Below are positions 1 through 39,183 of a DNA stretch of 64,000 nt, in pieces. The stretch is from Escherichia coli (GTDB lineage Bacteria > Pseudomonadota > Gammaproteobacteria > Enterobacterales > Enterobacteriaceae): NCBI RefSeq assembly GCF_013122565.1, contig NZ_CP053258.1; one strand, written 5' to 3'. Every line of letters starts with the position of its first letter. Within the stretch, counting starts at the first letter, position 1. Under the pieces are notes generated by a model. It worked only from the letters and a program-made list of their open reading frames with translations. It made no database searches and was not told the origin of the DNA. The position numbers and the translations under genes are program-made.

Positions 1-521
1 ATTTCGCTGTCGCCGACAAACAGGCCGACGGTCACCTTGCCATGCAGTTGTGGATCGCTGGCGATGGTTTTGGCGAAACGGCTGGCCTGATCGGTTGCCA
101 GGGCGTTCATCGGGTAGATGATAATCGCTTTAACCCCGGCTTGTGACGCGCCCGCGCAGTGGTTGAGCAGCGGGAACATAAAGCATTCTGTTTTACCGGA
201 GCCGGTACCGGTAGCGACCAGCGTCGGCTGTGGCGCGTCGCTTCCCAGACGCTGAAATGCCCGGGCCTGATGCGCGTGCGGCGGGAACGGCAGCGTCAGA
301 TTAGGGAAGAAATTCAGCGGTAAGTCACTTTTACGAAACGGCAACTGGGCGGAAAGGTATGGTCCTTTCAGCAGCGTTTCGGGCTGGGCCAGAAATTGCT
401 CCAGCATTGAGACATTATCGTTATTCTCACCGTTAAACAGCGGGCTGTTTAGCGGGAACGCCGCCCGTAAAAAGGCGGCAACGCTGTCGGCGACCTGCCG
501 ACTGACAACGGACGGCAACAT
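1..521 (-). CDS. DEAD/DEAH-box SF2 helicase, 5' portion only (gene continues beyond window start); DISARM DrmA-like
   Basis: Manual translation of minus strand from ATG at 521-519 gives MLPSVVSRQVADS...PTLVATGTGSGKTECF (Walker A) with no stops to position 1; start overlaps upstream stop (ATGA); RBS-like GGAGAG upstream. Confidence 0.6.
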   Translation of the reverse strand, partial: MLPSVVSRQVADSVAAFLRAAFPLNSPLFNGENNDNVSMLEQFLAQPETLLKGPYLSAQLPFRKSDLPLNFFPNLTLPFPPHAHQARAFQRLGSDAPQPTLVATGTGSGKTECFMFPLLNHCAGASQAGVKAIIIYPMNALATDQASRFAKTIASDPQLHGKVTVGLFVGDSE

Positions 522-3500
522 CAGGCGCTCTCCTTATCTTGTGCAAAGAACGCCCAGGCCACTTTGTAGTCGTCTTCGCGATCCGGCTTGATAAACGGTG
601 CCTGCCAGGTGACGGTACGGCGCTCGCCTTCGTCGCTGCGGGTATAGTCATCAAAGGTGACGCTGACGGTACCAGTTTTAAGATGTTTGACATCATCCCA
701 GCCGATGGCTTGATCGGTGCAGTCACCGCCGGTCCACTCCGGGCTGTCGACGTTAAAGACAAAGCCGTTTTTCAGGTCAGCTTTACGCGCGGTACGCGGC
801 AGACCGACGCCCACCAGCCCTTTGCTTGGGGTAAAGATGATGCGGCCGTTTTGGTCGTACCAGGTGTCCGCTTCGTACTGACGCATCACCGGGAACTGAA
901 CGCGATAAATGGTAAGCAGTTCTTCGAGGGTTAACCCCAGCGCCTGCGCCACCAGTACGTCGATTTCCACCAGCGCCTGACGACGACTGTAGTCAGAGCG
1001 TAAGGCGCAGTTACGCTGCCACTCTGGGGTCAGATTGGTGAAGAAATCCTGGGGGAGCTGCGGGAGATCGCGGCTCCAACGCTGGGTGTTGAAATCTGGG
1101 GTGTAGCAGGATTGCCAGAGATCGGCATAACTTCTCACTAGCGATACAAGGCATAGAGCCCGACTATGTAGTGCTGTACGATAAGCATCATTTGTAAGTA
1201 CTGGCAGTTGGTTAATAAGAGAGGTATTGGCATGCCCCATACCCGTACTTTTCACACGATAATCCAACGGTACAGAAAGAGTCATCGAAAAATAGTCAAG
1301 CAATAATTGAGTATCTTTAAACGCCGTTCCAAGACAAGTATTTATATGGCTCACACCTGGTGGCACAATTGTTGTAATTAATGTTCTTTCAGATGATGGA
1401 CCTATCATTTCACGATTAACAAAACGATAATAGTCCGTCACCTTCCTCGGCTCGTCTTCATCCTGCTCTTTCCACGAAACCCGTGGGGTGCGCTTTGCAT
1501 ACTCCTGTGCATCACAGGCTGGAATATAGTTAGTGCGCGGCAAATAGTCGTCGGGCAGAGTTAGCAAGTCCAGGCAGTCATAATGTCCTTTCTCTGTGCA
1601 AATTTCTCTCGGCGTTTTATAAAGCGGTGTTCCAACATAGAAGTGCGGACCAGACAAAATCCATTGGGATGCGTCTTCCGGGAATTGGGTATGCCGTTCG
1701 ATTGTGCCATCACTTTGTTGATTTGTTTCATGCCACATTTCAAGAGACAAATATTGCCCCTGCAAATCCCCCAGCCGTTTAGGTTGCTTAGCGAATTTTT
1801 CAAGTACAGAAACAAGCGGTTCAGCATGAAGCGCTGGGAGTCGAGCTTCAAGATCCGGCGTTCCCTCTTCATCATAAAGAGTGGCAAATAGTGCAAGCCG
1901 TTCCATTCCAACGGTCAAAATACGGCTTTGATGCCCCGCTTCATTCCAGGAACCTGTTTCGTCATCTTTAATGCCGCCAACTTCACCGGAACCATCATGC
2001 GCAAGACAAAGCTCGATCGTTTTGGCTGAGAAAAGGTTTGCAATATTGATAAAGCCGACAGATTGATTCGGTGAAGCCGTATAAATATTAATGCTGAATT
2101 TAACCCTGTGACCAATAGGGAAAAGCATATGCTGATTCTGAAACTGAAAATGTGCCCTCAGTCTCGGATACACTGCCGCACGAAGCTGCCCGCCTTTCGG
2201 GTCATCATAAATCCCTTCCGGGTGCAGGAAACCTGACACGCCTTTCTGCGCCCCTAAGCGCCAGGCCTGAGGCAGGAAGCATTTATACAAGTTGGTCTGC
2301 ACCCCGCGCAGTACCGGGTAGTTCTGCTGCGCATTGAGGAAGTTTTGCATCCCTTCACAGCCTTCATACTCGCTGCGCCAGGCCGCTTCCAGCGCCGGGA
2401 TCTGGTTGAAGGTATCAATACGCAACGTTGCCAGCTTCGATGCACTCAGCTTACGTAGCACAAATTCCGGCTCGTAATCACCCAGCACGCCCGCTTCCTG
2501 CCATTCCACTTTCAGCCACGGCGGGTTTCCGAGCATCAGGTCAAAACCGCCGCGCTCGGCAAACAGGTCGCAGAACTCCAGATCCCAGTGGAAGAAACGG
2601 TGCTGCTTTCTCAGGGCATCGACAATCGCCAGACGCGGTAAATGACGGAACAACACCTCAGTTTTCAGACGACCTGCGCCGGAAAACAGTGAAGACTCTT
2701 CTCGCAGCAGGCCTTCTTCGGCAAACAGATCACCAGTGGTGTGCTCCGCAACTTCAGTGACTTTTTCCGTAATTACAATCCCGTCGAGCAGGGTTTCAAT
2801 CTCAAACAACCAGGTGCCGCGATCCGGTAACTCATCGGCTTTGTCGATCGGCCAGAACCACAGCGCGCACCAGTAGTCCATTACCCAACGCAGCTTCTGG
2901 TAGGCGCTGTTATCTTCAAGACGACCACTGAAGGTTTCATCTTTACTGCTCAGCGAAGAACGCGTCTGCTCGCTGTTTTCTGCCGGCCACACCGGGTAGC
3001 TGTCGGCGGTTTTCAGACGTTCTGCTTTAAGTTGCTGGCGATAGGTGTTCCACAGTGCTTCCACCTTTTCGCTGATACGCTGCACATCAGCAATCTCATG
3101 CCCGGCAAAGCTTTTAATAAACTCTTTGCGCCAGCTGTCCAGCGCTTTGAAGTCATCCGGATAACGCTGCTTAACGGTTTTATCGCTGTAGTTAGCCATA
3201 CCGCCGTCGGGCAGCAGGAAGTGGAAAATCTGCGTCTCTTCACGCGGCGTGTTCATCGCCAGCTCGACCGGTTCGCTGTTAAGCCAGCTCGGATCTTTGG
3301 CTTTTTTGTAGGTCAGTTCGCTCTTGTTGAACACCTGACGGCGCGCGCCCACCAGCGAGTTACCGCAGTGCAACTGGTAACCAAACCACGGTACAAACGC
3401 ATCGCCACTAATGGCGTTCAGCCACAGTGACACTTCCGCCAGTTCCACCGCCACCGGGTTTAAGTCCACGCCGAAAACGTTGTTGTCGGCAATGTACATT

Positions 3501-5437
3501 TTCACCCGCTGTAACTCCTGGGTGTAACGATCCTGCGGAATACGGCGACCTTCCGCCTGCTGCTTATGGAACAGATACGCTTCCGCCAGCTGGTTGATGG
3601 CTTCGTTAAGGAACGCCGCGCTGCCCATCGCCGGTTCGCACACGGTGAGGTTTAAGATGGCGTCGGCTTTGGCGTGCGGATCGCTAATGGGATCAATCTG
3701 CTCCTTAAACAGTTCTTTCAGAGCATATTTAACCAGTGAGCGGGTCAGCACTTCCGGGGTGTAATAAGATGCAGATTTCTCACGGTCGCGCCCGGCCATA
3801 CGGTAGATAAAACTGCCTTTGCGGTGAATGCGCAGACTGCCGTCTTTCTCGTAGACCTTCTCGTCTTCGTGGTATTTGCCAATCTCATCCTTACTGACGA
3901 AGTAACCCGTCTCCAGCTCGTTAAACTCTTCCCCGGCTTTCTTCACCTCGTAGAGATCTTCGCTGGCGAAGAATCCGCGATAGGAGAGCAGCGCCTCATA
4001 CACCGCACCCAACTGGTTGATACCCAACTGGCGATAAGATATACGTCCACGGCGGTTAAAGCGCCCTTTGCCCGGGCGGCTTAACGACATCGCCTGGATA
4101 ATCTGTTGCAGGGTTTCGTTACGGAATACCACGCGGTTAAGAATGCGGGTGTTGTTGGCATCGAAAAGATGACTTTCCAGACGCGGGACGCTGAACTGAT
4201 GACTATGGATGGTGATCCGGTCGCCGCTCTCCAGGTCACTCTGCATTTTCACGCCGCCGTTGTAGCCTTCGCGCACCAGTTTAAACAGCATATTCAGGCT
4301 GTCGTGGAAGTAGCGCCCGTTGCGATCTTCTTCGCTGGTCAGCGGGATCATCTCCAGATCGCGCAACGTTTCCAGGCTGTAGCCCTGTAGATAGGTTTTG
4401 GCGGTCATTGGCGCATAACCCAGCTCCGGGCGCGCTTCAATGTAGAACAGGAACAGCAGGCGGTACATGTAACGCAGACATTCGCGGCTCAGTTCATCCG
4501 GGTCCACCGCACGGTTACCGGTATAGTTTGCCAGGCCACGGTCGATCAGATAATGCATCGCTTCGTTGCCCAGCAACTCAATGCTTTCGCGCAGGGCATA
4601 TTTCAGATCTTCCGAAACACCAAACGCATGTTTGTGCGAATTGTCATCCAGCGAGTCAAGATAAGGTGCCCCACTGCCCGGCAGCAGAGAATCTTTATGT
4701 AGCAACACCGCCGTCGCTTTCAGCGTATCCGTTTCACGACGACTTAAAATCTCTTCAAAATCAAAACGTAGCAGACGGTTTTGCGCCCACTTAGTACGGT
4801 CCAACAACAATAGCTGACGGTTACCGAGCAGCAGCACAAAACGCGGCGGTTCATTTTGGGTGAAGACCGCCGTAGAGAGCAGATCCTGCCAGCTGCGATA
4901 TTCACCGTTGGCTTTTTTGCGCAGGCTGTCGCGCTTATGTTTGTCGGTATCCGCCGGGAATTGCGCGGTCAGTAAGGAGAGCGCCAGCGGATCCAGCGTT
5001 CCTTCTTCCTGATCGTGTGCTTCAACAATCCACAGCCACGGGCTACCGTCAGTGCTGTTGTAACGCGCCAGTACCGGCAGTGGTGTATCGTCATCCAGCA
5101 TTTGGATCTGCGGCGTAATTTCGTAGCCCAGCGCCTTTAACAATGGCTGCCAGCGATTACGTTGATCGGCCAGACGCTGCGGGATCTGACGCTGTTTTTC
5201 GTGCTCGGCAAGTTTGCGGAAAAACTCAGTCGCCAGACTGTTAAACTGGTTCCACGGAGCGCGGTATCCCGGCTCCACGTCTTTGCCCTGTTCACGAGCG
5301 GCACGTTCCGCTTCACGCGCTGCATTTTCCTGGGCTATCCAGGGTTCCAGCACATCGCGGATATCACTGGTGAAAACCTCACCCAAATAATGGTTAGAGT
5401 AAAATTCGTTTTCGTTATTAATACCGACCAGCGCCAT
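521..5437 (-). CDS. Large N6-adenine DNA methyltransferase (1638 aa), DISARM DrmMI-like
   Basis: ORF track; AdoMet-binding-like motif EPAMGSAAFL and catalytic NPPW motif; sits between SNF2 helicase and DEAD-box helicase genes. Confidence 0.7.
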   Translation of the reverse strand: MALVGINNENEFYSNHYLGEVFTSDIRDVLEPWIAQENAAREAERAAREQGKDVEPGYRAPWNQFNSLATEFFRKLAEHEKQRQIPQRLADQRNRWQPLLKALGYEITPQIQMLDDDTPLPVLARYNSTDGSPWLWIVEAHDQEEGTLDPLALSLLTAQFPADTDKHKRDSLRKKANGEYRSWQDLLSTAVFTQNEPPRFVLLLGNRQLLLLDRTKWAQNRLLRFDFEEILSRRETDTLKATAVLLHKDSLLPGSGAPYLDSLDDNSHKHAFGVSEDLKYALRESIELLGNEAMHYLIDRGLANYTGNRAVDPDELSRECLRYMYRLLFLFYIEARPELGYAPMTAKTYLQGYSLETLRDLEMIPLTSEEDRNGRYFHDSLNMLFKLVREGYNGGVKMQSDLESGDRITIHSHQFSVPRLESHLFDANNTRILNRVVFRNETLQQIIQAMSLSRPGKGRFNRRGRISYRQLGINQLGAVYEALLSYRGFFASEDLYEVKKAGEEFNELETGYFVSKDEIGKYHEDEKVYEKDGSLRIHRKGSFIYRMAGRDREKSASYYTPEVLTRSLVKYALKELFKEQIDPISDPHAKADAILNLTVCEPAMGSAAFLNEAINQLAEAYLFHKQQAEGRRIPQDRYTQELQRVKMYIADNNVFGVDLNPVAVELAEVSLWLNAISGDAFVPWFGYQLHCGNSLVGARRQVFNKSELTYKKAKDPSWLNSEPVELAMNTPREETQIFHFLLPDGGMANYSDKTVKQRYPDDFKALDSWRKEFIKSFAGHEIADVQRISEKVEALWNTYRQQLKAERLKTADSYPVWPAENSEQTRSSLSSKDETFSGRLEDNSAYQKLRWVMDYWCALWFWPIDKADELPDRGTWLFEIETLLDGIVITEKVTEVAEHTTGDLFAEEGLLREESSLFSGAGRLKTEVLFRHLPRLAIVDALRKQHRFFHWDLEFCDLFAERGGFDLMLGNPPWLKVEWQEAGVLGDYEPEFVLRKLSASKLATLRIDTFNQIPALEAAWRSEYEGCEGMQNFLNAQQNYPVLRGVQTNLYKCFLPQAWRLGAQKGVSGFLHPEGIYDDPKGGQLRAAVYPRLRAHFQFQNQHMLFPIGHRVKFSINIYTASPNQSVGFINIANLFSAKTIELCLAHDGSGEVGGIKDDETGSWNEAGHQSRILTVGMERLALFATLYDEEGTPDLEARLPALHAEPLVSVLEKFAKQPKRLGDLQGQYLSLEMWHETNQQSDGTIERHTQFPEDASQWILSGPHFYVGTPLYKTPREICTEKGHYDCLDLLTLPDDYLPRTNYIPACDAQEYAKRTPRVSWKEQDEDEPRKVTDYYRFVNREMIGPSSERTLITTIVPPGVSHINTCLGTAFKDTQLLLDYFSMTLSVPLDYRVKSTGMGHANTSLINQLPVLTNDAYRTALHSRALCLVSLVRSYADLWQSCYTPDFNTQRWSRDLPQLPQDFFTNLTPEWQRNCALRSDYSRRQALVEIDVLVAQALGLTLEELLTIYRVQFPVMRQYEADTWYDQNGRIIFTPSKGLVGVGLPRTARKADLKNGFVFNVDSPEWTGGDCTDQAIGWDDVKHLKTGTVSVTFDDYTRSDEGERRTVTWQAPFIKPDREDDYKVAWAFFAQDKESA

Positions 5438-5439
5438 GA

Positions 5440-8298
5440 TTAACCCTCCGCTCCGGTGATAACAGCAATTACCTGAATGTAGGGTTCTTTTTCAGTCGTC
5501 ATGGTGTCCTCAATCCATTCGATATAGCTGTCAAAATTGTGTTCGATTTCGCGTTGTCTCTGCTCTTTACGGCTCTGCTTGACTGACAATTGCTGTTTGT
5601 TATCGGCAAAATCCAGCTCAAGTTGGCTCAACTGCCGCCCACGCAAAACGTCCAGCTTTTGCAGATGCTCGTTCAGTTGCTGGTTAATGTGCGTTTCAAA
5701 CGCATTCCGATCATGGATAAATACCTCCCGGGCATGCGCAATAGCCGCTTCCAGTAAATCCTGCTGGCGCTGGTGATTACGATCTTTACCGCCGCTGTTA
5801 GTCAGATTGTTACTCAACTGCGGATGACGTTGTAAAAACTCAGCGAATGGCTGACTGCCGATTAGCGATTCACGGTCAAAGCTCACCACTATCCACGGGT
5901 TCACCATCGGATGTGATTTACGGTTCGGGAATAACCCGGAAAGAATGAAGTGATCTTCATCGGGTTCAAGCAGGTATGGCAGACGGATAACCGGTGCCTG
6001 ATGACGACCAAAAGCCGAAGAGATTTTATCGTCCAGCCACTGCACTACCGGGTTGATTTGCCAGAGATACTGCACATCGGGCCAGGCATGTTGCTCACCG
6101 CGAGCGCGCGCAATCGCGTCGGTGATGACGGTTTTATCCTGACTTAAATAGAGCTGCCAGTTCTCCGGGGCAATTTCAGGCGGTAGCTGGTTGAAGCGGC
6201 GGCGTAACTCCTCCGGTGCCACCAGCGACAAGGTATTATCAGGCAAGGTTTCATACTGGATAGTTTGACCACTGGCTTTCAGGTAACCCAATGCTCTTTC
6301 ACAGTACGCCTGTTCGCTGGCAAACAAGCTGGTGTCTGTTTCGGTAACCATTGAGGCATCGCTGGAAACCGCACTGCATATTTCGCCAAACAGATCATGT
6401 TCGGCGCTTTCCGAGACGTTGCTGTTCAGCAGTTGATCAAACAGGCTGGCACCATCATCCTGCATCATGAACTCTGCAACCTGCTCTTCTTCCTCTTCCT
6501 GGGTAAATTTGCCGGTAAACTCCGAACTGTCCCCAATGTTCTTCTGCGCCTGTTCGTCTTTGTTGATCAACACTTCCAGTACGCGCATATCGCCATTGAT
6601 CTGTGGTTCGCTGGCCTCGGTAAGCAGATAGCGGATTTGAGGCTGATGTTTTTGCCCATAGCGGTCAATACGCCCGTTACGTTGCTGGAATACCATCAAC
6701 GACCACGGAATATCAAAGTGAATCATTTTGTGGCTAAGGTGATGCAAGTTGATCCCTTCAGATGCCACATCCGAACAAACCAGAAGACGCAACGGAGACT
6801 GCGTTTTACCAAAGGCTTCTACGGTTTCCATCAATACCGTATCGCCCTGATCGCCGCGCAGCGTGGCGATCTGGTCATCTTTCAATTTCAGATCCGCTCG
6901 CAGTTGCTGTTCGAGGAACTCCAGCGTTTTAATACTTTCGGTGAAGATCACCAGGCGATCTTCCGTGTTATTGGCTTTCCAGGCGAGGTCTTTTCGGATG
7001 GTGTCGAGCAGCAACTGGTATTTGCTAAACTGGCTGGCATCAATGTTATTCAGCGCCAACAGCAATGACTCCAGTTCGTTGATCTGGCTCTGGCTATTAT
7101 GATCTTTACGGCTCTCAAGACGCTTCAGACGATTCGCCACTACGCTGGCACACGCCATCGGGCTGGAAAATAGCGCTTTTTCGAGGGTTATCTTGAACAG
7201 ACGACCTTTGTTAGACTGGGCCTGTTCATCGTCATCATCACGGAACTGGCTCTCAACCAGGCGACGGTATGCTTCTTCTTCGGCACCAGATGCCAGGCGA
7301 GTCAGTTTGACAATATTGCGCTCGGGGAACTCGCCGGACATCTGATCTTTCACGTCTTTTTTGAAGCGACGGACAACCAGATTTTTATCGGCAAAATCGG
7401 CGTATTCATACTCTTTCGGGTTGGCGATCGCCGTCGGGTCAAGCATGTTCATCAGGCTGGCAAAACTTTCAGCCTTACCATCATGCGGTGTTGCTGAAAG
7501 CATAATCAGCGTATCGCTGCGCCCGGCGAGCAGTTTTGCCAGTTTACTGCGTAACGAACTGGTTCCACGTTCTGCGACGTTATGGGCCTCATCAATGACA
7601 ATAATATCCCACCAGGCATTTTCCAGATGGTGACGATATTCAATGTCTTGTTTCAGCGTATCGATGGAGATAATGGTCTTGTCAAAATAGTGGAACGGGT
7701 TGTGGTTGGTTGGGATGCGGTTACGCACCTTTTGTAAACCAGCAGAATCCAGGCGGGTCAATGGGATCGCAAAACGGCTCCAGAACTCCTTCTGGAATTG
7801 TGTCAGCATCGATTTAACCGCCAGAACCAGAATACGTTTTCCGCGCCCACGACGGATCAGTTCCGAAACCAGAATACCGGCTTCCAGCGTTTTACCCAGA
7901 CCGACAGCGTCGGCAATGAGTATCCGCTGGCGCGGTTGTGCCAGCGCCATCCGCGTAGGATCGAGCTGAAACGGCATGGAATCCATCGCCGCCAGATGAC
8001 CAAAATGGACTTTACTGTCTGTCGGTACGCGTTGGCGTAACTGACTTTCAATATACAACTGTGCCGCTTGATAATTGGCGGATTCATCTTCCACCAAATG
8101 CGTTTTTGCGGGATCAAGGATCTCTACTTTTTGTTCCAGTTTGGTCAGAAATAACCCTTCTTTACCGCGCACCAGCTCTGAAATACCATCGCAGGTCAGC
8201 AAATACCCACCATCACCACTGTCATCCGCCCGGCGAATACGCCATTCGGCATCACGAATAACCACCCGCATACCAGGTGCATAATTTTGCTTATTCAT
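5440..8298 (-). CDS. SNF2-family helicase (952 aa), DISARM DrmD-like
   Basis: Walker A GLGKT, DEAH box (VIDEAHNV), C-terminal helicase region; 2 nt upstream of methyltransferase start. Confidence 0.7.
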   Translation of the reverse strand: MNKQNYAPGMRVVIRDAEWRIRRADDSGDGGYLLTCDGISELVRGKEGLFLTKLEQKVEILDPAKTHLVEDESANYQAAQLYIESQLRQRVPTDSKVHFGHLAAMDSMPFQLDPTRMALAQPRQRILIADAVGLGKTLEAGILVSELIRRGRGKRILVLAVKSMLTQFQKEFWSRFAIPLTRLDSAGLQKVRNRIPTNHNPFHYFDKTIISIDTLKQDIEYRHHLENAWWDIIVIDEAHNVAERGTSSLRSKLAKLLAGRSDTLIMLSATPHDGKAESFASLMNMLDPTAIANPKEYEYADFADKNLVVRRFKKDVKDQMSGEFPERNIVKLTRLASGAEEEAYRRLVESQFRDDDDEQAQSNKGRLFKITLEKALFSSPMACASVVANRLKRLESRKDHNSQSQINELESLLLALNNIDASQFSKYQLLLDTIRKDLAWKANNTEDRLVIFTESIKTLEFLEQQLRADLKLKDDQIATLRGDQGDTVLMETVEAFGKTQSPLRLLVCSDVASEGINLHHLSHKMIHFDIPWSLMVFQQRNGRIDRYGQKHQPQIRYLLTEASEPQINGDMRVLEVLINKDEQAQKNIGDSSEFTGKFTQEEEEEQVAEFMMQDDGASLFDQLLNSNVSESAEHDLFGEICSAVSSDASMVTETDTSLFASEQAYCERALGYLKASGQTIQYETLPDNTLSLVAPEELRRRFNQLPPEIAPENWQLYLSQDKTVITDAIARARGEQHAWPDVQYLWQINPVVQWLDDKISSAFGRHQAPVIRLPYLLEPDEDHFILSGLFPNRKSHPMVNPWIVVSFDRESLIGSQPFAEFLQRHPQLSNNLTNSGGKDRNHQRQQDLLEAAIAHAREVFIHDRNAFETHINQQLNEHLQKLDVLRGRQLSQLELDFADNKQQLSVKQSRKEQRQREIEHNFDSYIEWIEDTMTTEKEPYIQVIAVITGAEG

Positions 8299-8365
8299 CG
8301 GTTTTTCTGTCTATTTGGGGCAGTGGCGGTAACGTCATCCTGAAAAATGTGGCGCGGCACACTGC

Positions 8366-8403
8366 GATAAAAAAGAGGGCCTTAAAGATATCATGAAGGC
8401 CCC
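8366..8403 (-). terminator. Rho-independent terminator-like hairpin after druE-like gene
   Basis: Stem GGGCCTT/AAGGCCC followed by T-run on minus strand (A-run 8368-8375 on plus). Confidence 0.45.
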
Positions 8404-8521
8404 CGGCAAAGTGACAAAATGGGAGGGAATGCGCATAAATTGCGCATGATTTTCAAACAAAAATTATTAAAAAGTGAGCTGGGTCAACTCCCCTGGAAGA
8501 TATCCCCAGGGGAGCAATTAT

Positions 8522-14845: not shown

Positions 14846-17800
14846 ACTCCTGCTTGTTCAAAATAATATTGATAGATTACCCCTAATTGCTGTGGGGCTT
14901 GCTGATAGTGAAATTCAAAAAGCGCAGACAGTTGATGTATCAGGTTATTATCTTTTTGGGTTAACAGCGCTGCGACTAACATCAAATTAAAACGTTTTTC
15001 AAGCCGTGAGTGATATTTATCTTCAATCCAAAGCTTATTAAAAACAGATTTTAACTCTGGAGTAATAGCACTGGACCAAAGTTCTTTAGGGAAGATACTG
15101 ATACGCCCAAAGCTGTCGGGGTTCCTTAATAGCATCTGTTTAGCTTCATTAAACTGCTCACGACTAACAGTTGGCAATACATCACAACCGGTTGGTAGGC
15201 TCTCACTATATGTAAGTAACATATTCGCAATGGGAGCCAGCCGACGATCGATATGTGCACGATGGTTCATAAAAGCAATAAAGGGTCGCAATATATGTAA
15301 TGCTAATGTTTTATCGTTAATCTGTTTTTCCAGATAAGTCCAACATTTTTGGAAAACATCTTTCCAGATTGAAACGGGAATCCATCCCCATGAAAAGGGT
15401 AATTCTTCCTGTATATCATAAATCGTATCGCTATCACCAGAAAGACATGATGATATTAACAATTGAACAACCACGCGGTAATTACTCGAAATACATCTGA
15501 ACAAGTCCAGATCCAGCAAGGATAAGCCATTATTCATTTTGTATTTCTTAATATACTCTGTTAATAAACAGCAATAATTTTGCAATGGGTTGTTATCTAT
15601 TTCAAAAATTAGCTCATTAAAATTTTTTTTGCGCTGTTCTGGGTCTGCTTCGCATAGAGCATTTAGTAATAAATCATTTGTCTGTAATACAGGTAGCATC
15701 CATTTAATTACTGGTGCAATGCGAGCTGTACCATCCAGTTTTCCCACAATTAACCATGGACTATCCTGAACATTCAGAGCTGAAAGATCATAAGCAAACT
15801 CATCTTTTTTTAACAATGATATGTGTAAGCCAGGATTCTTAAGAGAAATAGCATCAACAACCAGTTCGTCTATTCTATTTGCAGGAAAAACAACAGAATT
15901 TTTTATATCAACCAGTAACCCTTGATCGTGTTCAATAAAACTACCATCGTAGCGTTTAATATTGAGTGTTGCTTTATCCTTTCCAAATCTGTCAGAGTAA
16001 AAATCAACACATAATGTACTATTGCTGTTCCATGCACATGCCAGCATAGCATTTAGCAAATTATAGTTCTCATAAAGTGAAATTTGTTGTAATTTGTCAT
16101 TGCGTCCTGATAAAAGAGGAAGGTCGGCATGTAAATAACGGAATTTTTCAGCTACTGGATTTTCATCGAATAACTCGATATTAAGATATCCTCTTCCAGC
16201 ACATGATATGGTTAATAACTCAGCATCTATTCCATGCAAATGTGCTATAGATGCCACACCATCAAAATGAACAGAACCATCATTAGTTACAAATCGGCCA
16301 CCGCTAACCGGCTTAGGTAATAATAGTTTAAGATTAGAACCATCTTTCCAGGAGACCCGTAAATCAACGGTATTTTCCAGCATCTGCGATGAATTATAAT
16401 AAATAGCACACTCGTTTTGTGAATAATCGGACTTAAGTGTTACTTTTTCATTGTTTGAATATTTATCAATTCTAGTATCCGTTATACCAGAAAGTATAAT
16501 AATGCCTTGCTGAGCACTCTCAGGTATAATATTAATATCGAAGTCTGCTGGTAAAACTACAACTTTACCGCTAAATAAAACCTCATCATTAACTATTCGC
16601 CGGACTTCTATCTGTCCTTTTGGCATTTCTGATGCGACAGAATACCAGGCATTGTTACCTGAACGAATGGAACGCCAAAAAAGTTCTTTCTCCGGTACAA
16701 TGCCATATTGTAGATCCTTTTTCCAACCGATCTTCGGCCAGGCTCGATGGACAGGATAATCCGATTTAACCAGTTCAACTTCTGTCGATTTAATATAATA
16801 TTCAATTGCAGAATCATAAAGTTGCTGGGTGCGAATTGTACAAACAGCACCATCATGTAAAACAACGCTAAATACTCCACTTATTTTAGTTAAGCTGCGT
16901 TCACTGTTTTTCAGCAACCTTGGGATATCAAACTCACCTTCTCCACTAATATCTAAATGGCTATTTTTCGGTAGCGAAATAAACAGAGCATTTAGCCTGG
17001 AACTCACAGACCCCATACCAACAAGTTTTAGCTGCGATTCACTCTCATTCATCGCTTCAAAAACCCAGGGAAGTTCTTCAGTAAGTTCATAACCGCCTTT
17101 TGGAATTGTGTGACCTAACAGAATTGGACCTTCATGAAGCGACAATGAGATTTCGGCCATTGCATCTGCACCAGAGAGTTTTTGCATCGCAATAGGTAAT
17201 AACTCGACCCGCCAATCTTGCTGCTCATAACGGCTTAGCATTGCCAACCTTGCCCCGCCATTTTTCCATTTTCCTGAAATGATGAGTCGGGTCTGCTCCG
17301 GCTGAATATGGCATTCAAACAAAGAGGTTAACTGTTCTGTACGCATTGTGGCCGGGAATCGGAACCGGGCATCGCAATACCAACTGTCATCAACATCGAC
17401 CCAGATTCTTTCAACCTGAAGACTACTTGCACTGCGTATTTCAGAAGATTGAGAAAGTAATCGCCTTACAATCTCTGCAGCATTCGCTTCGGGGAGAACG
17501 AGTGGAAGTTGAAGATGCCAGTCTGGAGAGAGCTTACGTAATGCAGAAACGGGATCACTGCTTTGAGGAGGATGCTCACTAAGTAATCGGCAGAGAGTCT
17601 CGCAGAATTCACCGGCTATTTCATAGACCAGTTCGTTTTGCATTGTGACAGGAATCGTATCGCCTAATTCTTGTGCAATTTTAGCGGCAGGATATTGAGA
17701 TGATTGCCCACGAAGCGCCTGATATATCCTTCTGAAATAGGTAATCAAATAACCGCTCTCATTTTCAATCATGCGGATAGGTAAACCACCTTCACAAGCC

Positions 17801-18195
17801 AGTGTATGCAGATAACCCGAAGCTTGCCCCAGGTTTCTTATCTTTCTTTTCCAGTAGCGAATGCCATCATTAACCAGCTTCTGTCGATGAACATACGGAA
17901 CTTTCCAGTTAATAGAATCTAAAATTGTGTCCCATTTAGGGTGTCCGACCGTATGAGTTCGGCGGATAAACTCTGCGGCATATATGCTAAATAGAACATC
18001 GCTATAGGAAATGAATATCGTTCTTGGATAACTACGGGGGGCATATGTACGCAGTAGTTCTGCCAAACTTTCGTACTCTGTATCAGTACAACGGTAAGCA
18101 TATAACGCCCGTCCATCAGCTCCGGATAATGAACGGCGACTAAAAAACATGTTAAGCCATTGCAAAAGTGGGTTAACTGGAGTTTTCACAAGCAA
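14836..18195 (-). CDS. Large protein of unknown function (1119 aa); Druantia type III DruH-like by position
   Basis: Long ORF immediately upstream of and overlapping the DruE-like gene by 10 nt; no recognisable catalytic motif. Confidence 0.5.
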   Translation of the reverse strand: MLVKTPVNPLLQWLNMFFSRRSLSGADGRALYAYRCTDTEYESLAELLRTYAPRSYPRTIFISYSDVLFSIYAAEFIRRTHTVGHPKWDTILDSINWKVPYVHRQKLVNDGIRYWKRKIRNLGQASGYLHTLACEGGLPIRMIENESGYLITYFRRIYQALRGQSSQYPAAKIAQELGDTIPVTMQNELVYEIAGEFCETLCRLLSEHPPQSSDPVSALRKLSPDWHLQLPLVLPEANAAEIVRRLLSQSSEIRSASSLQVERIWVDVDDSWYCDARFRFPATMRTEQLTSLFECHIQPEQTRLIISGKWKNGGARLAMLSRYEQQDWRVELLPIAMQKLSGADAMAEISLSLHEGPILLGHTIPKGGYELTEELPWVFEAMNESESQLKLVGMGSVSSRLNALFISLPKNSHLDISGEGEFDIPRLLKNSERSLTKISGVFSVVLHDGAVCTIRTQQLYDSAIEYYIKSTEVELVKSDYPVHRAWPKIGWKKDLQYGIVPEKELFWRSIRSGNNAWYSVASEMPKGQIEVRRIVNDEVLFSGKVVVLPADFDINIIPESAQQGIIILSGITDTRIDKYSNNEKVTLKSDYSQNECAIYYNSSQMLENTVDLRVSWKDGSNLKLLLPKPVSGGRFVTNDGSVHFDGVASIAHLHGIDAELLTISCAGRGYLNIELFDENPVAEKFRYLHADLPLLSGRNDKLQQISLYENYNLLNAMLACAWNSNSTLCVDFYSDRFGKDKATLNIKRYDGSFIEHDQGLLVDIKNSVVFPANRIDELVVDAISLKNPGLHISLLKKDEFAYDLSALNVQDSPWLIVGKLDGTARIAPVIKWMLPVLQTNDLLLNALCEADPEQRKKNFNELIFEIDNNPLQNYCCLLTEYIKKYKMNNGLSLLDLDLFRCISSNYRVVVQLLISSCLSGDSDTIYDIQEELPFSWGWIPVSIWKDVFQKCWTYLEKQINDKTLALHILRPFIAFMNHRAHIDRRLAPIANMLLTYSESLPTGCDVLPTVSREQFNEAKQMLLRNPDSFGRISIFPKELWSSAITPELKSVFNKLWIEDKYHSRLEKRFNLMLVAALLTQKDNNLIHQLSALFEFHYQQAPQQLGVIYQYYFEQAGVCH

Positions 18196-18403
18196 CCTGC
18201 CTTCCTTTGATACAATTCGTAACAGGTTACTATCATCATAAAAAAGCTCAACCCGATGAACTCGCTAAAAATGAGACAAATCATTTATATCTCGAAAAAA
18301 CTTGTTACAATCATGAGCGCTACACCGAACTTAACCATATAAATTATGTGTGTTTTGTTTATTTTTTAAACGATTACAACTATCCATTATTTACACAGGT
18401 ATC

Positions 18404-20059
18404 AAAATGTTAGCGCAGCTTTTTGAGCAGTTGTTTCAATCGATAGACTCTACACTGATCACCAATATTTTCATCTGGGCTGTTATATTCGTATTTTTAT
18501 CAGCGTGGTGGTGTGACAAAAAAAATATACATAGTAAGTTTAGAGAATATGCTCCAACCTTAATGGGGGCATTAGGTATTCTGGGTACTTTCATTGGTAT
18601 TATTATTGGTTTACTCAATTTTAATACCGAAAGTATTGATACCAGCATCCCCGTATTATTAGGTGGCCTAAAAACAGCATTCATTACAAGCATTGTAGGT
18701 ATGTTTTTTGCCATTTTATTTAATGGAATGGATGCTTTCTTTTTTGCCAATAAACGAAGTGCGTTAGCAGAAAATAACCCTGAATCTGTTACACCTGAAC
18801 ATATCTATCATGAATTAAAAGAGCAGAACCAGACTCTGACTAAATTAGTCTCGGGTGTTAACGGTGATAGTGAAGGTTCTCTTATTGCTCAAATAAAATT
18901 ACTACGTACTGAGATTAGCGATTCTTCGCAGGCACAATTAGCTAATCACACTCATTTCAGTAATAAGCTTTGGGAACAACTTGAACAATTTGCAGATCTA
19001 ATGGCAAAAGGTGCTACAGAACAAATTATTGATGCTTTGCGACAAGTTATTATTGATTTTAATGAAAATTTAACTGAACAGTTTGGTGAAAACTTTAAAG
19101 CACTTGATGCCTCTGTAAAAAAACTTGTTGAGTGGCAGGGAAATTATAAAACGCAAGTTGAGCAGATGTCAGAACAGTATCAACAAAGTGTCGAGTCCCT
19201 GGTTGAAACAAAAACTGCGGTTGCAGGGATTTGGGAAGAATGTAAAGAAATTCCTCTGGCTATGTCTGAACTGCGTGAAGTGCTTCAGGTGAACCAACAT
19301 CAAATCAGCGAACTCTCCCGCCATTTAGAAACCTTTGTCGCCATCCGCGATAAAGCAACAACCGTATTACCTGAAATACAGAACAAAATGGCTGAAGTGG
19401 GTGAACTGCTGAAATCCGGAGCTGCAAATGTTAGTGCATCTCTTGAGCAAACCAGCCAGCAAATACTTCTTAATGCAGATTCAATGCGCGTGGCCCTGGA
19501 TGAAGGTACCGAAGGATTCAGACAATCGGTTACCCAAACACAACAAGCATTTGCCTCGATGGCACATGATGTCAGCAATTCCTCCGAAACCCTAACCAGC
19601 ACGTTAGGTGAAACAATTACTGAAATGAAACAAAGTGGTGAAGAATTCCTGAAATCACTAGAGTCGCACTCGAAAGAATTGCATAGAAATATGGAACAAA
19701 ATACTACGAATGTGATTGATATGTTCAGTAAGACTGGTGAAAAGATTAACCATCAACTATCCAGTAATGCCGATAATATGTTTGATTCAATCCAGACATC
19801 ATTTGATAAGGCAAGTGCAGGGTTGACTTCTCAAGTCAGAGAATCAATTGAAAAATTTGCTCTATCCATCAACGAGCAGTTACATGCTTTTGAGCAAGCA
19901 ACTGAACGTGAAATGAACCGTGAAATGCAATCATTAGGTAATGCTCTGCTTTCAATCAGCAAAGGTTTTGTCGGTAACTATGAAAAACTTATTAAAGATT
20001 ACCAAATAGTTATGGGGCAGTTACAAGCATTAATTTCTGCTAATAAACATCGCGGGTAA
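18404..20059 (+). CDS. MotA/ExbB-like membrane protein with long coiled-coil tail; Zorya ZorA-like
   Basis: N-terminal hydrophobic helices followed by long helical Q/E/L-rich tail; ORF track starts at GTG 18350, first ATG at 18404. Confidence 0.65.
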   Translation, partial: KMLAQLFEQLFQSIDSTLITNIFIWAVIFVFLSAWWCDKKNIHSKFREYAPTLMGALGILGTFIGIIIGLLNFNTESIDTSIPVLLGGLKTAFITSIVGMFFAILFNGMDAFFFANKRSALAENNPESVTPEHIYHELKEQNQTLTKLVSGVNGDSEGSLIAQIKLLRTEISDSSQAQLANHTHFSNKLWEQLEQFADLMAKGATEQIIDALRQVIIDFNENLTEQFGENFKALDASVKKLVEWQGNYKTQVEQMSEQYQQSVESLVETKTAVAGIWEECKEIPLAMSELREVLQVNQHQISELSRHLETFVAIRDKATTVLPEIQNKMAEVGELLKSGAANVSASLEQTSQQILLNADSMRVALDEGTEGFRQSVTQTQQAFASMAHDVSNSSETLTSTLGETITEMKQSGEEFLKSLESHSKELHRNMEQNTTNVIDMFSKTGEKINHQLSSNADNMFDSIQTSFDKASAGLTSQVRESIEKFALSINEQLHAFEQATEREMNREMQSLGNALLSISKGFVGNYEKLIKDYQIVMGQLQALISANKHRG

Positions 20060-20065
20060 TCGATC

Positions 20066-20773
20066 ATGGATAAGATTATAGGGAAACAATTACCTAAAAA
20101 AGATCAAGATAATGAACATTGGGTATCCATGTCAGACCTAATGGCAGGGCTGATGATGGTTTTTATGTTCATATCTATTGCTTATATGCACTACGTACGT
20201 ATTGAAAAAGAAAAAATTAAAGAAGTTGCCGTAGCCTACGAGAATGCTCAGTTACAGCTTTATAATGCTCTGGATATTGAGTTTGCAAAGGATTTACAAG
20301 ACTGGGATGCAGAGATCGATAAACAGACTCTGGAGGTTCGATTTAAATCACCGGATGTTTTATTTGGCTTAGGAAGCACAGAGCTAAAACCAAAGTTTAA
20401 ACTCATTCTTGACGACTTTTTTCCTCGCTACCTAAAAGTTCTAGATAATTATCAGGAACATATTACTGAAGTCCGCATTGAAGGTCACACAAGTACTGAC
20501 TGGACAGGAACAACGAATCCTGATATTGCTTATTTTAATAATATGGCACTATCACAAGGTCGTACACGTGCAGTATTACAATACGTTTATGACATAAAAA
20601 ATATCGCGACACACCAACAATGGGTTAAAAGTAAATTTGCCGCAGTAGGTTATTCATCTGCACATCCCATTCTTGATAAAACCGGCAAGGAGGATCCTAA
20701 TCGCTCTCGTCGTGTCACCTTCAAAGTTGTAACAAATGCCGAGTTGCAGATTAGAAAGATTATTCAGGAGTAA
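20066..20773 (+). CDS. MotB/OmpA-like protein with peptidoglycan-binding domain; Zorya ZorB-like
   Basis: N-terminal TM helix; OmpA-like C-terminus (NxxLSQGRTRAV...NRSRRVTF); 6 nt after zorA-like stop. Confidence 0.65.
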   Translation: MDKIIGKQLPKKDQDNEHWVSMSDLMAGLMMVFMFISIAYMHYVRIEKEKIKEVAVAYENAQLQLYNALDIEFAKDLQDWDAEIDKQTLEVRFKSPDVLFGLGSTELKPKFKLILDDFFPRYLKVLDNYQEHITEVRIEGHTSTDWTGTTNPDIAYFNNMALSQGRTRAVLQYVYDIKNIATHQQWVKSKFAAVGYSSAHPILDKTGKEDPNRSRRVTFKVVTNAELQIRKIIQE

Positions 20774-20776
20774 GAG

Positions 20777-21880
20777 ATGAAATTATCTATCGACATTTCA
20801 GAACTTATTCAATTAGGGAAGAAAATGTTACCAGAAGGAGTCGATTTTTTTCTGGATGAATCCCCTATTGACTTTGATCCTATAGATATTGAGTTATCAA
20901 CGGGTAAAGAAGTTAGTATCGAAGATCTTGACCCTGGTAGCGGGCTTATCTCTTATCATGGCCGCCAGGTTCTTTTATATATTCGGGACCATTCAGGGCG
21001 TTATGATGCGGCTATCGTAGATGGCGAAAAAGGAAAACGTTTTCATATTGCCTGGTGCAGAACTCTTGATGAAATGCGCCATAAAAATCGATTTGAAAGG
21101 TATCATGCAACTAACCGCATAGATGGTTTATTCGAAATTGATGATGGTTCAGGTCGGAGCCAGGATGTTGATTTACGGGTATGTATGAATTGCCTCGAAC
21201 GGCTTAATTATAAAGGAAGTATTGATAAACAAAGAAAAAGAGAGATTTTTAAATCATTCTCATTAAATGAGTTTTTTTCAGATTATAGTACCTGTTTTCG
21301 TCATATGCCTAAGGGTATCTATGACAAAACAAATAGTGGGTATGTCGAAAACTGGAAGGAAATATCTAAAGAAATACGAGAAAAGGCAAATTATGTTTGT
21401 AATGATTGTGGCGTGAATTTATCAACCGCCAAAAACTTGTGCCATGTCCATCATAAAAATGGCATCAAATATGATAATCACCATGAAAACCTTCTTGTTC
21501 TGTGCAAGGATTGCCATCGAAAACAGCCCCTCCACGAAGGTATATTCGTTACCCAAGCAGAGATGGCTATCATTCAACGTTTACGTTCCCAACAAGGGTT
21601 ATTAAAAGCAGAATCCTGGAATGAAATATATGACCTGACTGATCCATCAGTGCATGGTGATATTAATATGATGCAACATAAAGGCTTTCAACCTCCTGTT
21701 CCTGGGTTAGATCTTCAAAACTCAGAACATGAAATTATTGCAACCGTAGAAGCTGCATGGCCAGGCCTTAAAATTGCAGTTAACCTTACTCCCGCCGAAG
21801 TCGAAGGATGGAGAATATATACCGTGGGTGAGCTGGTTAAAGAAATACAAACCGGAGCCTTTACGCCAGCAAAATTGTAA
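20777..21880 (+). CDS. HNH endonuclease-domain protein; Zorya type II ZorE-like
   Basis: HNH motif CNDCG...CHVHHKNG...NLLVLCKDCH; third gene of MotA-like/MotB-like cassette. Confidence 0.6.
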   Translation: MKLSIDISELIQLGKKMLPEGVDFFLDESPIDFDPIDIELSTGKEVSIEDLDPGSGLISYHGRQVLLYIRDHSGRYDAAIVDGEKGKRFHIAWCRTLDEMRHKNRFERYHATNRIDGLFEIDDGSGRSQDVDLRVCMNCLERLNYKGSIDKQRKREIFKSFSLNEFFSDYSTCFRHMPKGIYDKTNSGYVENWKEISKEIREKANYVCNDCGVNLSTAKNLCHVHHKNGIKYDNHHENLLVLCKDCHRKQPLHEGIFVTQAEMAIIQRLRSQQGLLKAESWNEIYDLTDPSVHGDINMMQHKGFQPPVPGLDLQNSEHEIIATVEAAWPGLKIAVNLTPAEVEGWRIYTVGELVKEIQTGAFTPAKL

Positions 21881-21891
21881 ATTCTAAAACT

Positions 21892-21915
21892 CCGTGAAAG
21901 TTAAGACTTTCACGG
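21892..21915 (+). terminator. Hairpin (10 bp perfect inverted repeat) after zorE-like gene, probable terminator
   Basis: CCGTGAAAGT-TAAG-ACTTTCACGG followed by A/T-rich tract. Confidence 0.4.
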
Positions 21916-22090
21916 AAGATAAATAAAATTATTCTGATTTGTGACTCAAATTACAAAAGTAGTTAATGGCATAACTTGTCTTGTTTTTATGGTATAACAG
22001 GTATAAAGGTATATGCTATGGTTCGCCTCATACTTAAAACTTCCCTCATACGGGTGAAGGTTAAAGCTTGGTAGACAGGAGACAGTCACA

Positions 22091-23197: not shown

Positions 23198-23261
23198 CGC
23201 TTCAGGGCCCCAGTAAAGGGGCCCTGCTATCAATTTGTCATTTGAATTACGCGAAAATTAT

Positions 23262-24639: not shown

Positions 24640-24915
24640 GTAAAGGTTGCTGGAAACGATCAATGCCGCCATACAATAATATTTGAGGATCAACAATGAG
24701 TAATAAAAATTACGAGAGTCACCGCAAAGCAATTGTTAGTAAAGGTATACCCCCCACTCTATTAAATAGGCTCACCAATTCGGATATTCAGGTGATCAAT
24801 ACCTTCTTAACACGAGTGAGCAAACTGGAACTATCTCAACAAGAGAAAGACTGGATCATAAAAATCATCTCTATGGTTTAGAGAATTTCAGCCTTGTAGC
24901 CTTTCAAGGGTTTTG

Positions 24916-25098
24916 TGTGGGTACAAACATTATCGAATCGGGATATAGCCGCAGCTGTAGCTGTACCCACATCAGTAAGTTGATGTAGGTTGACTTAGGT
25001 TGAGCGAAAAATAGCGAAAAGCCTTGTGTGGCGCGGATTTCAGTCACAAAAAAGACGTCCGTTGACGTCTATTGATGTTCCGATGGTGCGAAGGCCGC
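24916..25098. repeat. Degenerate copy of the leuX-proximal region (integrase upstream region, terminator-like hairpin and tRNA 3' end remnant); distal att boundary of the leuX island
   Basis: About 75 percent identity by eye to 47446-47630; TGGTGCGAAGGCCG at 25084-25097 resembles the tRNA 3' end; hairpin GACGTC-CGTT-GACGTC at 25054-25069. Confidence 0.6.
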
Positions 25099-26613: not shown

Positions 26614-26645
26614 ATTCGCCTCCTGAGTCATTGCATAAAGAGTAG

Positions 26646-39120: not shown

Positions 39121-39183
39121 TACACGCATGACAAGCCCCGGCAGCGGGGCTTTTGTATTTAAAACAGGATATAAACGCTAACA

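What the first reader, a model, noticed from the sequence alone, without database searches (positions are those of the whole stretch)
1..21880. Three large defence modules packed head-to-tail next to nanM where K-12 has nanC
About 22 kb left of nanM holds a MotA/MotB/HNH cassette (Zorya II-like), a 1119 aa + 2107 aa pair (Druantia III-like) and an SNF2 helicase / 1638 aa methyltransferase / DEAD helicase operon (DISARM class 1-like). This is a very dense defence island. nanC, which precedes nanM in K-12, is missing.
Basis: partly seen in the sequence, partly recalled or inferred. Interest (0 to 1): 0.6.

Follow-up and report, generated by a model that had tools for sequence, protein, structure and literature searches.

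The report
Known Zorya–Druantia–ARMADA phage-defence island
The first 22 kb of the window is an intact copy of an already published, experimentally tested three-system anti-phage island of Escherichia coli (Zorya II, Druantia III, ARMADA II), so it is real but not new.

Summary
Window 1-21880 holds nine large, intact defence genes: armC (5' end only), armB, armA, druE and druH on the minus strand, and zorA, zorB and zorE on the plus strand, directly upstream of nanM.

The third module is not DISARM class 1. It is ARMADA type II (armABCD), a DISARM-related system defined and tested in 2025. The window cuts it inside armC. A contig 100% identical to window 1-15437 supplies the rest of armC, then armD.

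The same array, O-island 172 of O157:H7, lies in 497 of 5426 complete E. coli genomes at about 98-99% identity. Published deletions and plasmid tests show that it defends against phages and that the systems synergise.

nanC is absent from the window. On the identical contig, the island runs from the nanC stop codon to the gntP start codon of the K-12 map. It therefore replaces nanC, the whole fim operon and gntP. Only 9 complete genomes have this arrangement.

One side observation may be unpublished. The C-terminal domain of ZorE is homologous to the last domain of ArmC and has a Vsr-like nuclease fold.

Verdict: already known, low interest.

The parts
1..521 (-). armC, 5' end only (first 173 aa of a 2113-aa YprA-family DEAD/DEAH helicase-nuclease of ARMADA II). 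The gene runs off the left edge of the window.
   Evidence: The N-terminus matches DruE models best (83 bits), DrmA only 19 bits. Walker A GSGKT has K110 at the position mutated in PMC12458937. The full gene is seen in L006, which is 100% identical to window 1-15437.
521..5437 (-). armB, 1638-aa PglX/type IIG-like N6-adenine DNA methyltransferase of ARMADA II. It has two hypervariable stretches, aa ~1100-1150 and ~1300-1450 (about nt 1090-2140).
   Evidence: PADLOC REase_MTase_IIG 936 bits, DrmMI 193 bits. NPPW at N971 and G605, as in the tested ArmB. Variable blocks found by comparison with EC1515 and S43. GC dips to 47% at 1001-2000.
5440..8298 (-). armA, 952-aa SNF2/RapA (BrxHII-like) helicase of ARMADA II.
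   Evidence: PADLOC DrmD 333 bits, BrxHII 201 bits. NCBIfam DISARM_DrmD 349 bits, below the cut-off of 610. K136 and D236 (DEAH) are present.
8522..14845 (-). druE, 2107-aa YprA-family helicase-nuclease of Druantia type III.
   Evidence: PADLOC DruE3 2182 bits, end to end. PDB 9tu7, 4888 bits over residues 3-2107.
14836..18195 (-). druH, 1119-aa STY4851/ECs_5259 (YjiT) family protein of Druantia type III.
   Evidence: PADLOC DruH3 2550 bits. NF038336 983 bits, cut-off 150. PDB 9tud 'DruH' 2568 bits.
18196..18406 (.). Divergent intergenic region between druH and zorA. It is presumed to hold both promoters.
   Evidence: Gene geometry. Promoter-like hexamers at 18207-18236 and 18284-18311 on the plus strand are consensus matches only.
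18407..20059 (+). zorA, the MotA-like subunit of Zorya type II. The mechanical ORF starts at GTG 18350; the 550-aa form starts at ATG 18407.
   Evidence: NF041792 ZorA2 1140 bits, cut-off 700, matching residues 20-569 of the ORF. PADLOC ZorA2 1002 bits.
20066..20773 (+). zorB, the MotB-like subunit of Zorya type II.
   Evidence: NF041787 444 bits, cut-off 400. PADLOC ZorB2 346 bits.
20777..21880 (+). zorE, the HNH nuclease effector of Zorya type II. It carries a C-terminal Vsr-like domain (aa ~279-360).
   Evidence: NF041791 696 bits, cut-off 600. The C-terminal domain is homologous to the ArmC C-terminus.
21881..22070 (.). Island-side spacer between zorE and the point where K-12 homology resumes (22071, the nanC stop codon).
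   Evidence: blastn against K-12, EC1515 and S43. The zorE-nanM junction is shared by 96 complete genomes.
22091..24242 (+). nanM (22091-23197) and nanS (ORF 23235-24242). Both are intact but are separated from nanC and the nanC promoter. They are flanking genes, not part of the defence array.
   Evidence: NF010730 601 bits, cut-off 416. 97.7% nucleotide identity to K-12 nanM-nanS.

Best explanation
[quoted passage not shown] It is the defence part of O-island 172 of E. coli O157:H7, located in the hypervariable region next to tRNA-Leu (leuX).

How the parts work is taken from the literature, not shown here.
- Zorya II: ZorA and ZorB form a MotAB-like inner-membrane complex that controls the HNH nuclease ZorE.
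- Druantia III: DruH senses infection and binds ssDNA. It works with DruE, a helicase-nuclease that loads on 3'-tailed DNA.
- ARMADA II: it needs all four genes, namely ArmA (SNF2 helicase), ArmB (adenine methyltransferase), ArmC (YprA helicase-nuclease) and ArmD (UvrD/GajB-like helicase). It blocks phage directly without killing the cell.
- Synergy: Druantia III synergises with ARMADA II, and through RecBCD-dependent DNA intermediates with Zorya II.

Shown here: identity and intactness of the genes, presence of the published catalytic residues, the gene order, the distribution, and the junctions.

Inferred: that this particular copy is active. Also inferred: that the variable blocks of ArmB set its methylation target.

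In this genome the array occupies the place of nanC-fimBEAICDFGH-gntP of the K-12 map.
For: Family assignments come from PADLOC and NCBIfam.

DruE and DruH are near-identical to solved structures 9tu7 and 9tud.

ARMADA II gene order armA-armB-armC-armD, with overlapping or abutting stop and start codons, is seen on L006. L006 is 100% identical to window 1-15437.

The residues whose mutation abolished or reduced defence in PMC12458937 sit at the same positions here: ArmA K136 and D236, ArmB G605 and N971, ArmC K110.

In O157:H7 strain PA20 the array is 98.7% identical to the window. Its ArmC is WP_000937974.1, the ARMADA II representative of that paper.

497 of 5426 complete E. coli genomes hold at least 80% of the 21.9 kb in one place.

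Function and synergy are shown experimentally in EDL933, NCTC 12900, ATCC 8739 and ECOR19-derived systems.

The context matches Figure 5B of PMC12458937: tRNA-Leu, Ahr, ValS, and composite mobile elements.
Against: No function was tested for this copy.

armD and 92% of armC are outside the window and are known only from an identical contig.

The ArmB of this copy has variable blocks that differ from every complete E. coli genome. The best full-length match of window 1-8400 is 96.3% identical, and no genome matches across the blocks. Its target is therefore unknown.

The mechanisms of ARMADA II and of the synergy remain unresolved in the literature.
Confidence: 0.95

Rival explanations
1. [quoted passage not shown]
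For: ArmA's best PADLOC and NCBIfam models are DrmD (333 and 349 bits). ArmB has partial DrmMI matches of 193 bits. The papers themselves call ARMADA 'DISARM-related'.
Against: DrmD scores below the curated cut-off (349 against 610). ArmB matches type IIG models five times better than DrmMI. ArmC scores 347 bits on DruE models but 50 bits or less on DrmA. The DUF1998/MZB domain is fused into ArmC, not carried by a separate DrmB. There is no PLD DrmC. An extra UvrD/GajB-like ArmD is present.
Confidence: 0.03
2. The armB gene with its flanking helicases is an ordinary type IIG or type ISP restriction-modification enzyme, unrelated in function to the neighbours.
For: The best PADLOC model for ArmB is REase_MTase_IIG, 936 bits over nearly its full length. 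The variable blocks look like target-recognition domains.
Against: ArmB sits in a tight four-gene operon with overlapping stop and start codons. All four genes and their ATPase motifs are needed for defence. The only Pfam hit on record for ArmB is a faint Eco57I match.
Confidence: 0.02
3. The array is a decayed, non-functional relic, like the yjiT/yjiV remnants of K-12 (this comparison rests on my own knowledge, not on a test here).
For: The paper says the ARMADA-carrying element at tRNA-Leu is often immobilised. No integrase adjoins the array in the window. nanM and nanS are left without their nanC promoter.
Against: All eight complete ORFs are full length relative to profiles and structures. 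Catalytic residues are intact. The array is 98-99% identical to experimentally active copies.
Confidence: 0.05

Closest known systems
Zorya II - Druantia III - ARMADA II array of O-island 172, E. coli O157:H7 EDL933 (z5894-z5902). The same array is in NCTC 12900, ATCC 8739, SMS-3-5 and ECOR19.
   Same: Same nine genes, same order and orientation, 98.7% nucleotide identity over 97% of the 21.9 kb. Same tRNA-Leu neighbourhood with Ahr and ValS.
   Different: The ArmB variable blocks differ. In O157, armD is followed by a transposase remnant and then nanS-nanM-nanC-fim-gntP-uxuA. Here armD is followed directly by uxuA, and a complete nanM-nanS sits on the zorE side. Only 9 complete genomes have the armD-uxuA junction.
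DISARM class 1 (DrmD, DrmMI, DrmA, DrmB, DrmC; Serratia sp. SCBI type)
   Same: An SNF2 helicase followed by a large N6-adenine methyltransferase and a DUF1998-associated SF2 helicase.
   Different: The helicase belongs to the Druantia-like YprA branch. DUF1998 and the nuclease are fused into it. There is no DrmB and no DrmC. An additional UvrD/GajB-like ArmD is present. Curated DrmD cut-off not reached.
Druantia type III structures, PDB 9tu7-9tuc (DruE) and 9tud (DruH)
   Same: Near-identical over the full length.
   Different: None of note.
Vsr-like nuclease domains of AbaSI and PvuRts1I, and Vsr itself (closest folds to the ZorE/ArmC C-terminal domain)

Membership tests
Zorya type II | ZorA (MotA-like with a long C-terminal tail) is present. 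| tested here: met
   NF041792 equivalog 1140 bits, cut-off 700. PADLOC ZorA2 1002 bits, full length.
Zorya type II | ZorB (MotB-like, OmpA-type peptidoglycan-binding) lies directly downstream of zorA. | tested here: met
   NF041787 444 bits, cut-off 400. The gene starts 7 nt after the zorA stop.
Zorya type II | ZorE HNH nuclease is the third gene, with no ZorC or ZorD. | tested here: met
   NF041791 696 bits, cut-off 600. HNH-type residues HH225-226, N234/H235 and H247 are present. No ZorC or ZorD match appears among the ORFs.
Zorya type II | Confers phage resistance. | not testable with these tools
   Shown for 98-99% identical copies in EDL933 and ECOR19-derived constructs.
Druantia type III | DruE: a helicase of about 2100 aa with DUF1998/MZB and C-terminal PLD-like domains. 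| tested here: met
   PADLOC DruE3 2182 bits over residues 9-2105. PDB 9tu7 4888 bits. Pfam DEAD, Helicase_C, YjiV_N and MZB on the identical protein. The PLD motifs were not inspected separately.
Druantia type III | DruH lies immediately upstream, co-directional with druE. | tested here: met
   PADLOC DruH3 2550 bits. NF038336 983 bits, cut-off 150. PDB 9tud. The druH ORF end overlaps the druE ORF start by 10 nt.
ARMADA type II | ArmA: a BrxHII/RapA-like SNF2 helicase as the first gene. | tested here: met
   SNF2-rel_dom, DEAD and Helicase_C. DrmD, BrxHII and RapA models match. K136 and D236 present.
ARMADA type II | ArmB: a PglX-like adenine methyltransferase as the second gene. | tested here: met
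   PglX and type IIG matches. NPPW at 971 and G605.
ARMADA type II | ArmC: a YprA-family helicase of the Druantia-like branch with fused MZB and a C-terminal Vsr-type nuclease, as the third gene. | tested here: met
   Only 173 aa lie in the window. On the identical contig L006 the protein is 2113 aa with DEAD, Helicase_C and MZB. DruE models match better than DrmA models. The last domain shares a Vsr-like fold by homology to the modelled ZorE domain. The O157 orthologue is the paper's representative, WP_000937974.1.
ARMADA type II | [quoted passage not shown] | tested here: inconclusive
   The gene is outside the window. On L006 it is a 704-aa UvrD-family protein directly after armC. GajB models match residues 240-610. 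The N-terminal RelE-like domain was not examined.
DISARM class 1 | DrmD SNF2 helicase reaches the curated family threshold. | tested here: not met
   NF038317 349 bits, cut-off 610. NF038318 121 bits, cut-off 950.
DISARM class 1 | DrmA helicase plus a separate DrmB (DUF1998) gene. | tested here: not met
   DrmA models score 50 bits or less, DruE models 347 bits. MZB/DUF1998 is fused inside ArmC, and there is no separate gene.
DISARM class 1 | DrmC PLD nuclease (frequent, not universal). | tested here: not met
   No PLD-type gene lies in or next to the operon. The fourth gene is a UvrD helicase.

The most novel reading that the evidence does not exclude
The roughly 85-aa Vsr-like C-terminal domain is shared by ZorE (Zorya II) and ArmC (ARMADA II). 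Elsewhere it sits at the C-terminus of many MZB/DUF1998 proteins, that is, YprA-family helicases. It could be a common module that recognises the same DNA intermediate or the same partner. If so, it would link the Zorya effector physically or functionally to the YprA helicase systems. That would explain two published observations: Druantia-associated ZorE proteins carry an unassigned C-terminal extension, and ZorE can be recruited without ZorAB. It would also explain why the three systems travel together. The searched texts of the two relevant papers do not mention this ZorE-ArmC homology.
Probability: 0.15. Interest if true: 0.5.

Novelty: already known. Interest (0 to 1): 0.22.

Why it matters
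The array is a major determinant of phage resistance in O157:H7 and many commensal E. coli. That matters for phage therapy and for understanding how defence systems cooperate. All of this has been published since 2022-2026.

What this copy adds is small:
- An ArmB specificity variant not seen in complete genomes.
- A rare arrangement in which the island stands in place of nanC, the type 1 fimbrial operon and gntP. It implies a strain without type 1 fimbriae or the NanC porin.
- A possible domain link between ZorE and ArmC.

Tried and rejected
- DISARM class 1 membership was tested and rejected.

- I first read the ~95-96% identity of the core flank as a sign of a non-E. coli host. Segment-wise comparison showed a mosaic instead: lptFG-pepA 98.4%, valS 97.4%, and int-leuX-ahr-yjgR 87.9% against S43. 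No complete genome exceeds 96.5% for ahr-yjgR. The host species is therefore left open.

- I searched for a copy of the leuX 3' end with up to 3 mismatches to find the island boundary. Only leuX itself matched. Repeat search and alignment then found a degenerate copy with an indel.

- No integrase fragment was found left of 24.9 kb by tblastn.

- Sequence search of ZorE and of the ArmC C-terminus against the PDB found nothing.

- The word-indexed protein search with the ZorE C-terminal domain returned only 8 fragments and was uninformative.

- Pfam on ZorE gave no significant domain.

- Rfam and the promoter/terminator scans showed nothing of note inside the island.

- A paper search for 'ZorE' plus 'Vsr' found nothing relevant.
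Full report
**1. Observation**

- Minus strand: an ORF running off the left edge (1-521), then ORFs of 1638 aa (521-5437), 952 aa (5440-8298), 2107 aa (8522-14845) and 1119 aa (14836-18195).
- Plus strand, divergent from these: ORFs of 569 aa (18350-20059; 550 aa from ATG 18407), 235 aa (20066-20773) and 367 aa (20777-21880).
- Flank: nanM (22091-23197) and nanS (23235-24242).

GC content is mosaic. Zorya and the 5' part of druH are at 36-40%. druE is at 46-52%. The ARMADA genes are at 51-58%, with a dip to 47% at 1001-2000. This fits three modules of separate origin.

**2. Family assignment**

Zorya II is met. ZorA2, ZorB2 and ZorE each exceed the curated NCBIfam equivalog cut-offs: 1140 against 700, 444 against 400, and 696 against 600. 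They match the PADLOC type II models end to end.

Druantia III is met.
- DruH scores 2550 bits (PADLOC) and 983 bits on NF038336 (cut-off 150).
- DruE scores 2182 bits over its whole length.
- Both are near-identical to solved structures 9tud and 9tu7.

The third module needed more work.
- The 952-aa SNF2 helicase matches DrmD best, but below the curated threshold (349 against 610 bits).
- The 1638-aa methyltransferase matches type IIG models (936 bits) far better than DrmMI (193 bits).
- The truncated helicase at the window edge resembles DruE, not DrmA.

**3. Completing the third module**

Megablast of window 1-8400 against complete E. coli genomes found 527 genomes. In strain EC1515 the operon has four genes: an SNF2 helicase, a methyltransferase, a 2113-aa DEAD/DEAH helicase and a 704-aa UvrD-family helicase. 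The big helicase scores 347 bits on DruE models and 50 bits or less on DrmA. The UvrD protein matches GajB.

An exact-sequence look-up of the window's own ArmB found a contig, L006 (Logan SRR11451224). It is 100% identical to window 1-15437 and extends to the left. It shows armC (2113 aa; DEAD, Helicase_C, MZB), armD (704 aa, UvrD) and then uxuA.

**4. Literature**

A full-text search shows that this array is published.

- Type II has the strict order ArmA (BrxHII/RapA-like), ArmB (PglX-like methyltransferase), ArmC (YprA helicase with a C-terminal Vsr-type nuclease), ArmD (RelE-GajB-like UvrD helicase).
- It shows broad, direct, non-abortive defence, and loss of defence on mutating ArmA K136 or D236, ArmB N971 or G605, ArmC K110, or ArmD.
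- It reports synergy with Druantia III in ATCC 8739.
- It describes the 'Zorya-Druantia-ARMADA' array on composite mobile elements at tRNA-Phe or tRNA-Leu, with Ahr, ValS and the fim operon as landmarks.

bioRxiv 10.1101/2025.09.22.677730 calls it the defence island of O-island 172 of EDL933. [quoted passage not shown]

Two 2026 preprints give the Druantia III mechanism and the Zorya-Druantia synergy.
- DruH is a sensor and ssDNA binder.
- DruE is a helicase-nuclease acting on 3'-tailed DNA.
- The synergy between Zorya II and Druantia III depends on RecBCD.

My own checks agree with the papers.
- The published catalytic residues are at the same positions in the window proteins.
- ArmC of O157:H7 strain PA20 is WP_000937974.1, the paper's ARMADA II representative.
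- That O157 array is 98.7% identical to the window over 97% of its length.
- 497 of 5426 complete genomes hold at least 80% of the 21.9 kb in one place.

The finding is therefore real, and two of its three family calls are right. The third is a near miss (ARMADA II, not DISARM I). The array is already known.

**5. The nanC claim and the junctions**

nanC is absent from the whole window. Homology to K-12 resumes at window 22071, the last base of the nanC stop codon. On the other side (L006), K-12 homology resumes at the start codon of gntP, about 0.9 kb beyond armD. So the island stands in place of about 12.5 kb of the K-12 map, comprising nanC, fimB, fimE, fimA, fimI, fimC, fimD, fimF, fimG, fimH and gntP.

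Strains S43 and TW14425 have the same layout, but it is rare. Only 9 complete genomes have the armD-uxuA junction.

The zorE-nanM junction is in 96 genomes. Most of these have only a truncated nanM-like pseudogene next to zorE, plus a second, native nanM.

In O157 and EC1515, armD is followed by a transposase remnant. In O157, intact nanS, nanM, nanC and fim follow it. In EC1515, nanS is partial and nanM is split by an IS3 element, then nanC and fim follow.

The shared zorE-nanM breakpoint suggests one ancestral joining event with later rearrangements. That is inference.

In the window, nanM and nanS have lost nanC and its promoter. How they are expressed is unknown.

**6. Wider context (outside the finding)**

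leuX lies at 47619-47703, with a P4-type integrase gene at 46151-47419. A 140-nt stretch upstream of that integrase gene is repeated at about 80% identity at 24915-25053. That repeat is followed by a degenerate copy of the leuX 3' end at about 25085-25102.

This marks a second, later-integrated element of about 22.5 kb. It carries AbiEi/AbiEii, a type I restriction-modification system, the candidate pair PDC-M01A/B and a restriction-endonuclease-like gene. This matches the composite structure described for tRNA-Leu islands. The window therefore holds at least six defence systems in 47 kb.

**7. Side observation: a domain shared by ZorE and ArmC**

The PADLOC and NCBIfam ZorE models hit the extreme C-terminus of ArmC (residues 2021-2096). 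BLASTP gives 40% identity over 57 aa, E = 8e-8.

A profile of this domain was searched against 1.84 billion representative proteins. It found 440 clusters at E <= 0.001. Among the 150 best hits, the domain lies near the C-terminal end in nearly all. The hosts are:
- ZorE-like proteins of about 360-390 aa;
- many short proteins;
- large proteins of 800-2150 aa.

Of 26 members scanned with Pfam, 9 carry MZB/DUF1998, the YprA family marker. A few carry HNH and one carries UvrD_C. The domain itself has no Pfam model.

Conserved positions (ZorE numbering) are an acidic residue at 312, an acidic residue at 325, a basic residue at 332, and W281, W328 and W345.

PMC13192584 reports that Druantia-associated ZorE proteins carry an unassigned nuclease-like C-terminal region. 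PMC12458937 reports Vsr-type domains at the end of ArmC. Text searches found no mention of ZorE in the latter or of ArmC in the former. The link may be new, but it is small and untested.

**8. Verdict**

The novelty class is 'already known'. Interest is low, because specialists would recognise the array at once. The residual value lies in the rare fim-less arrangement, the new ArmB variant and the ZorE-ArmC domain link.

Noticed in passing
window 21611-21860 (ZorE aa ~279-360), and ArmC aa 2015-2113 on L006 20950-21255: The C-terminal domain of ZorE is homologous to the last domain of ArmC (40% identity over 57 aa, E = 8e-8). It belongs to a family of about 440 protein clusters. Among the best hits it lies near the C-terminal end in nearly all, often after MZB/DUF1998. 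It has no Pfam model. The predicted fold is Vsr-like. Text searches of the two relevant papers found no mention of the link.
   Followed up: yes
window ~1090-2140 (ArmB aa ~1100-1150 and ~1300-1450): Two hypervariable blocks in ArmB fall to 12-40% and 74% identity against other E. coli ArmB proteins that are otherwise about 100% identical. They coincide with a local GC dip to 47%. They are probably target-recognition domains. No complete E. coli genome has this variant.
   Followed up: partly
L006 23370-24560 (left of the window) and window 21881-22090: On the contig identical to the window, the island replaces nanC-fimBEAICDFGH-gntP exactly from the nanC stop codon to the gntP start codon. 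Only 9 of 5426 complete genomes share the armD-uxuA junction. The strain probably lacks type 1 fimbriae.
   Followed up: yes
window 22091-24242: nanM and nanS are intact but cut off from nanC and the nanC promoter. In most other genomes with the array, the nanM next to zorE is a truncated second copy annotated as a 'Kelch repeat' pseudogene.
   Followed up: partly
window 24915-25102 and 47445-47643: A 140-nt stretch upstream of the integrase gene is repeated at about 80% identity, followed by a degenerate copy of the leuX 3' end. This marks the far boundary of a second, roughly 22.5-kb element integrated at leuX. No integrase remnant lies beside the older junction.
   Followed up: partly
window 25278-26682 and 35704-45847: The second element carries further defence genes: AbiEii and AbiEi, a type I R-M system (R 35704-39120, M 39184-40818, S 40815-41990), the candidate pair PDC-M01A/B (41987-44594) and an Aga-type restriction-endonuclease-like gene (44843-45847).
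   Followed up: partly
window 46176-50560 (int, leuX, ahr, yjgR): This core flank is unusually divergent: 87.9% identical to strain S43 across int-leuX-ahr-yjgR. For ahr-yjgR alone (47750-50560), no complete E. coli genome exceeds 96.5%. The neighbouring lptFG-pepA region is 98.4% identical and the defence array 98-99%. The host lineage is not identified.
   Followed up: partly
window 172-210 and 14454-14492: A 39-nt direct repeat at 87% identity. The left copy lies in the Walker A coding region of armC (K110). The right copy lies at a comparable distance from the start of druE. Its Walker A (GSGKT, aa 121-125) lies about 30 nt away, just outside the repeat. It probably reflects paralogy of the two YprA helicases rather than a functional repeat.
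   Followed up: no
window 53709-53903 and 54737-54812: Rfam matches to Ysr276 (antisense, within pepA) and naRNA4 (between pepA and holC). They are ordinary features of this core region.
   Followed up: no
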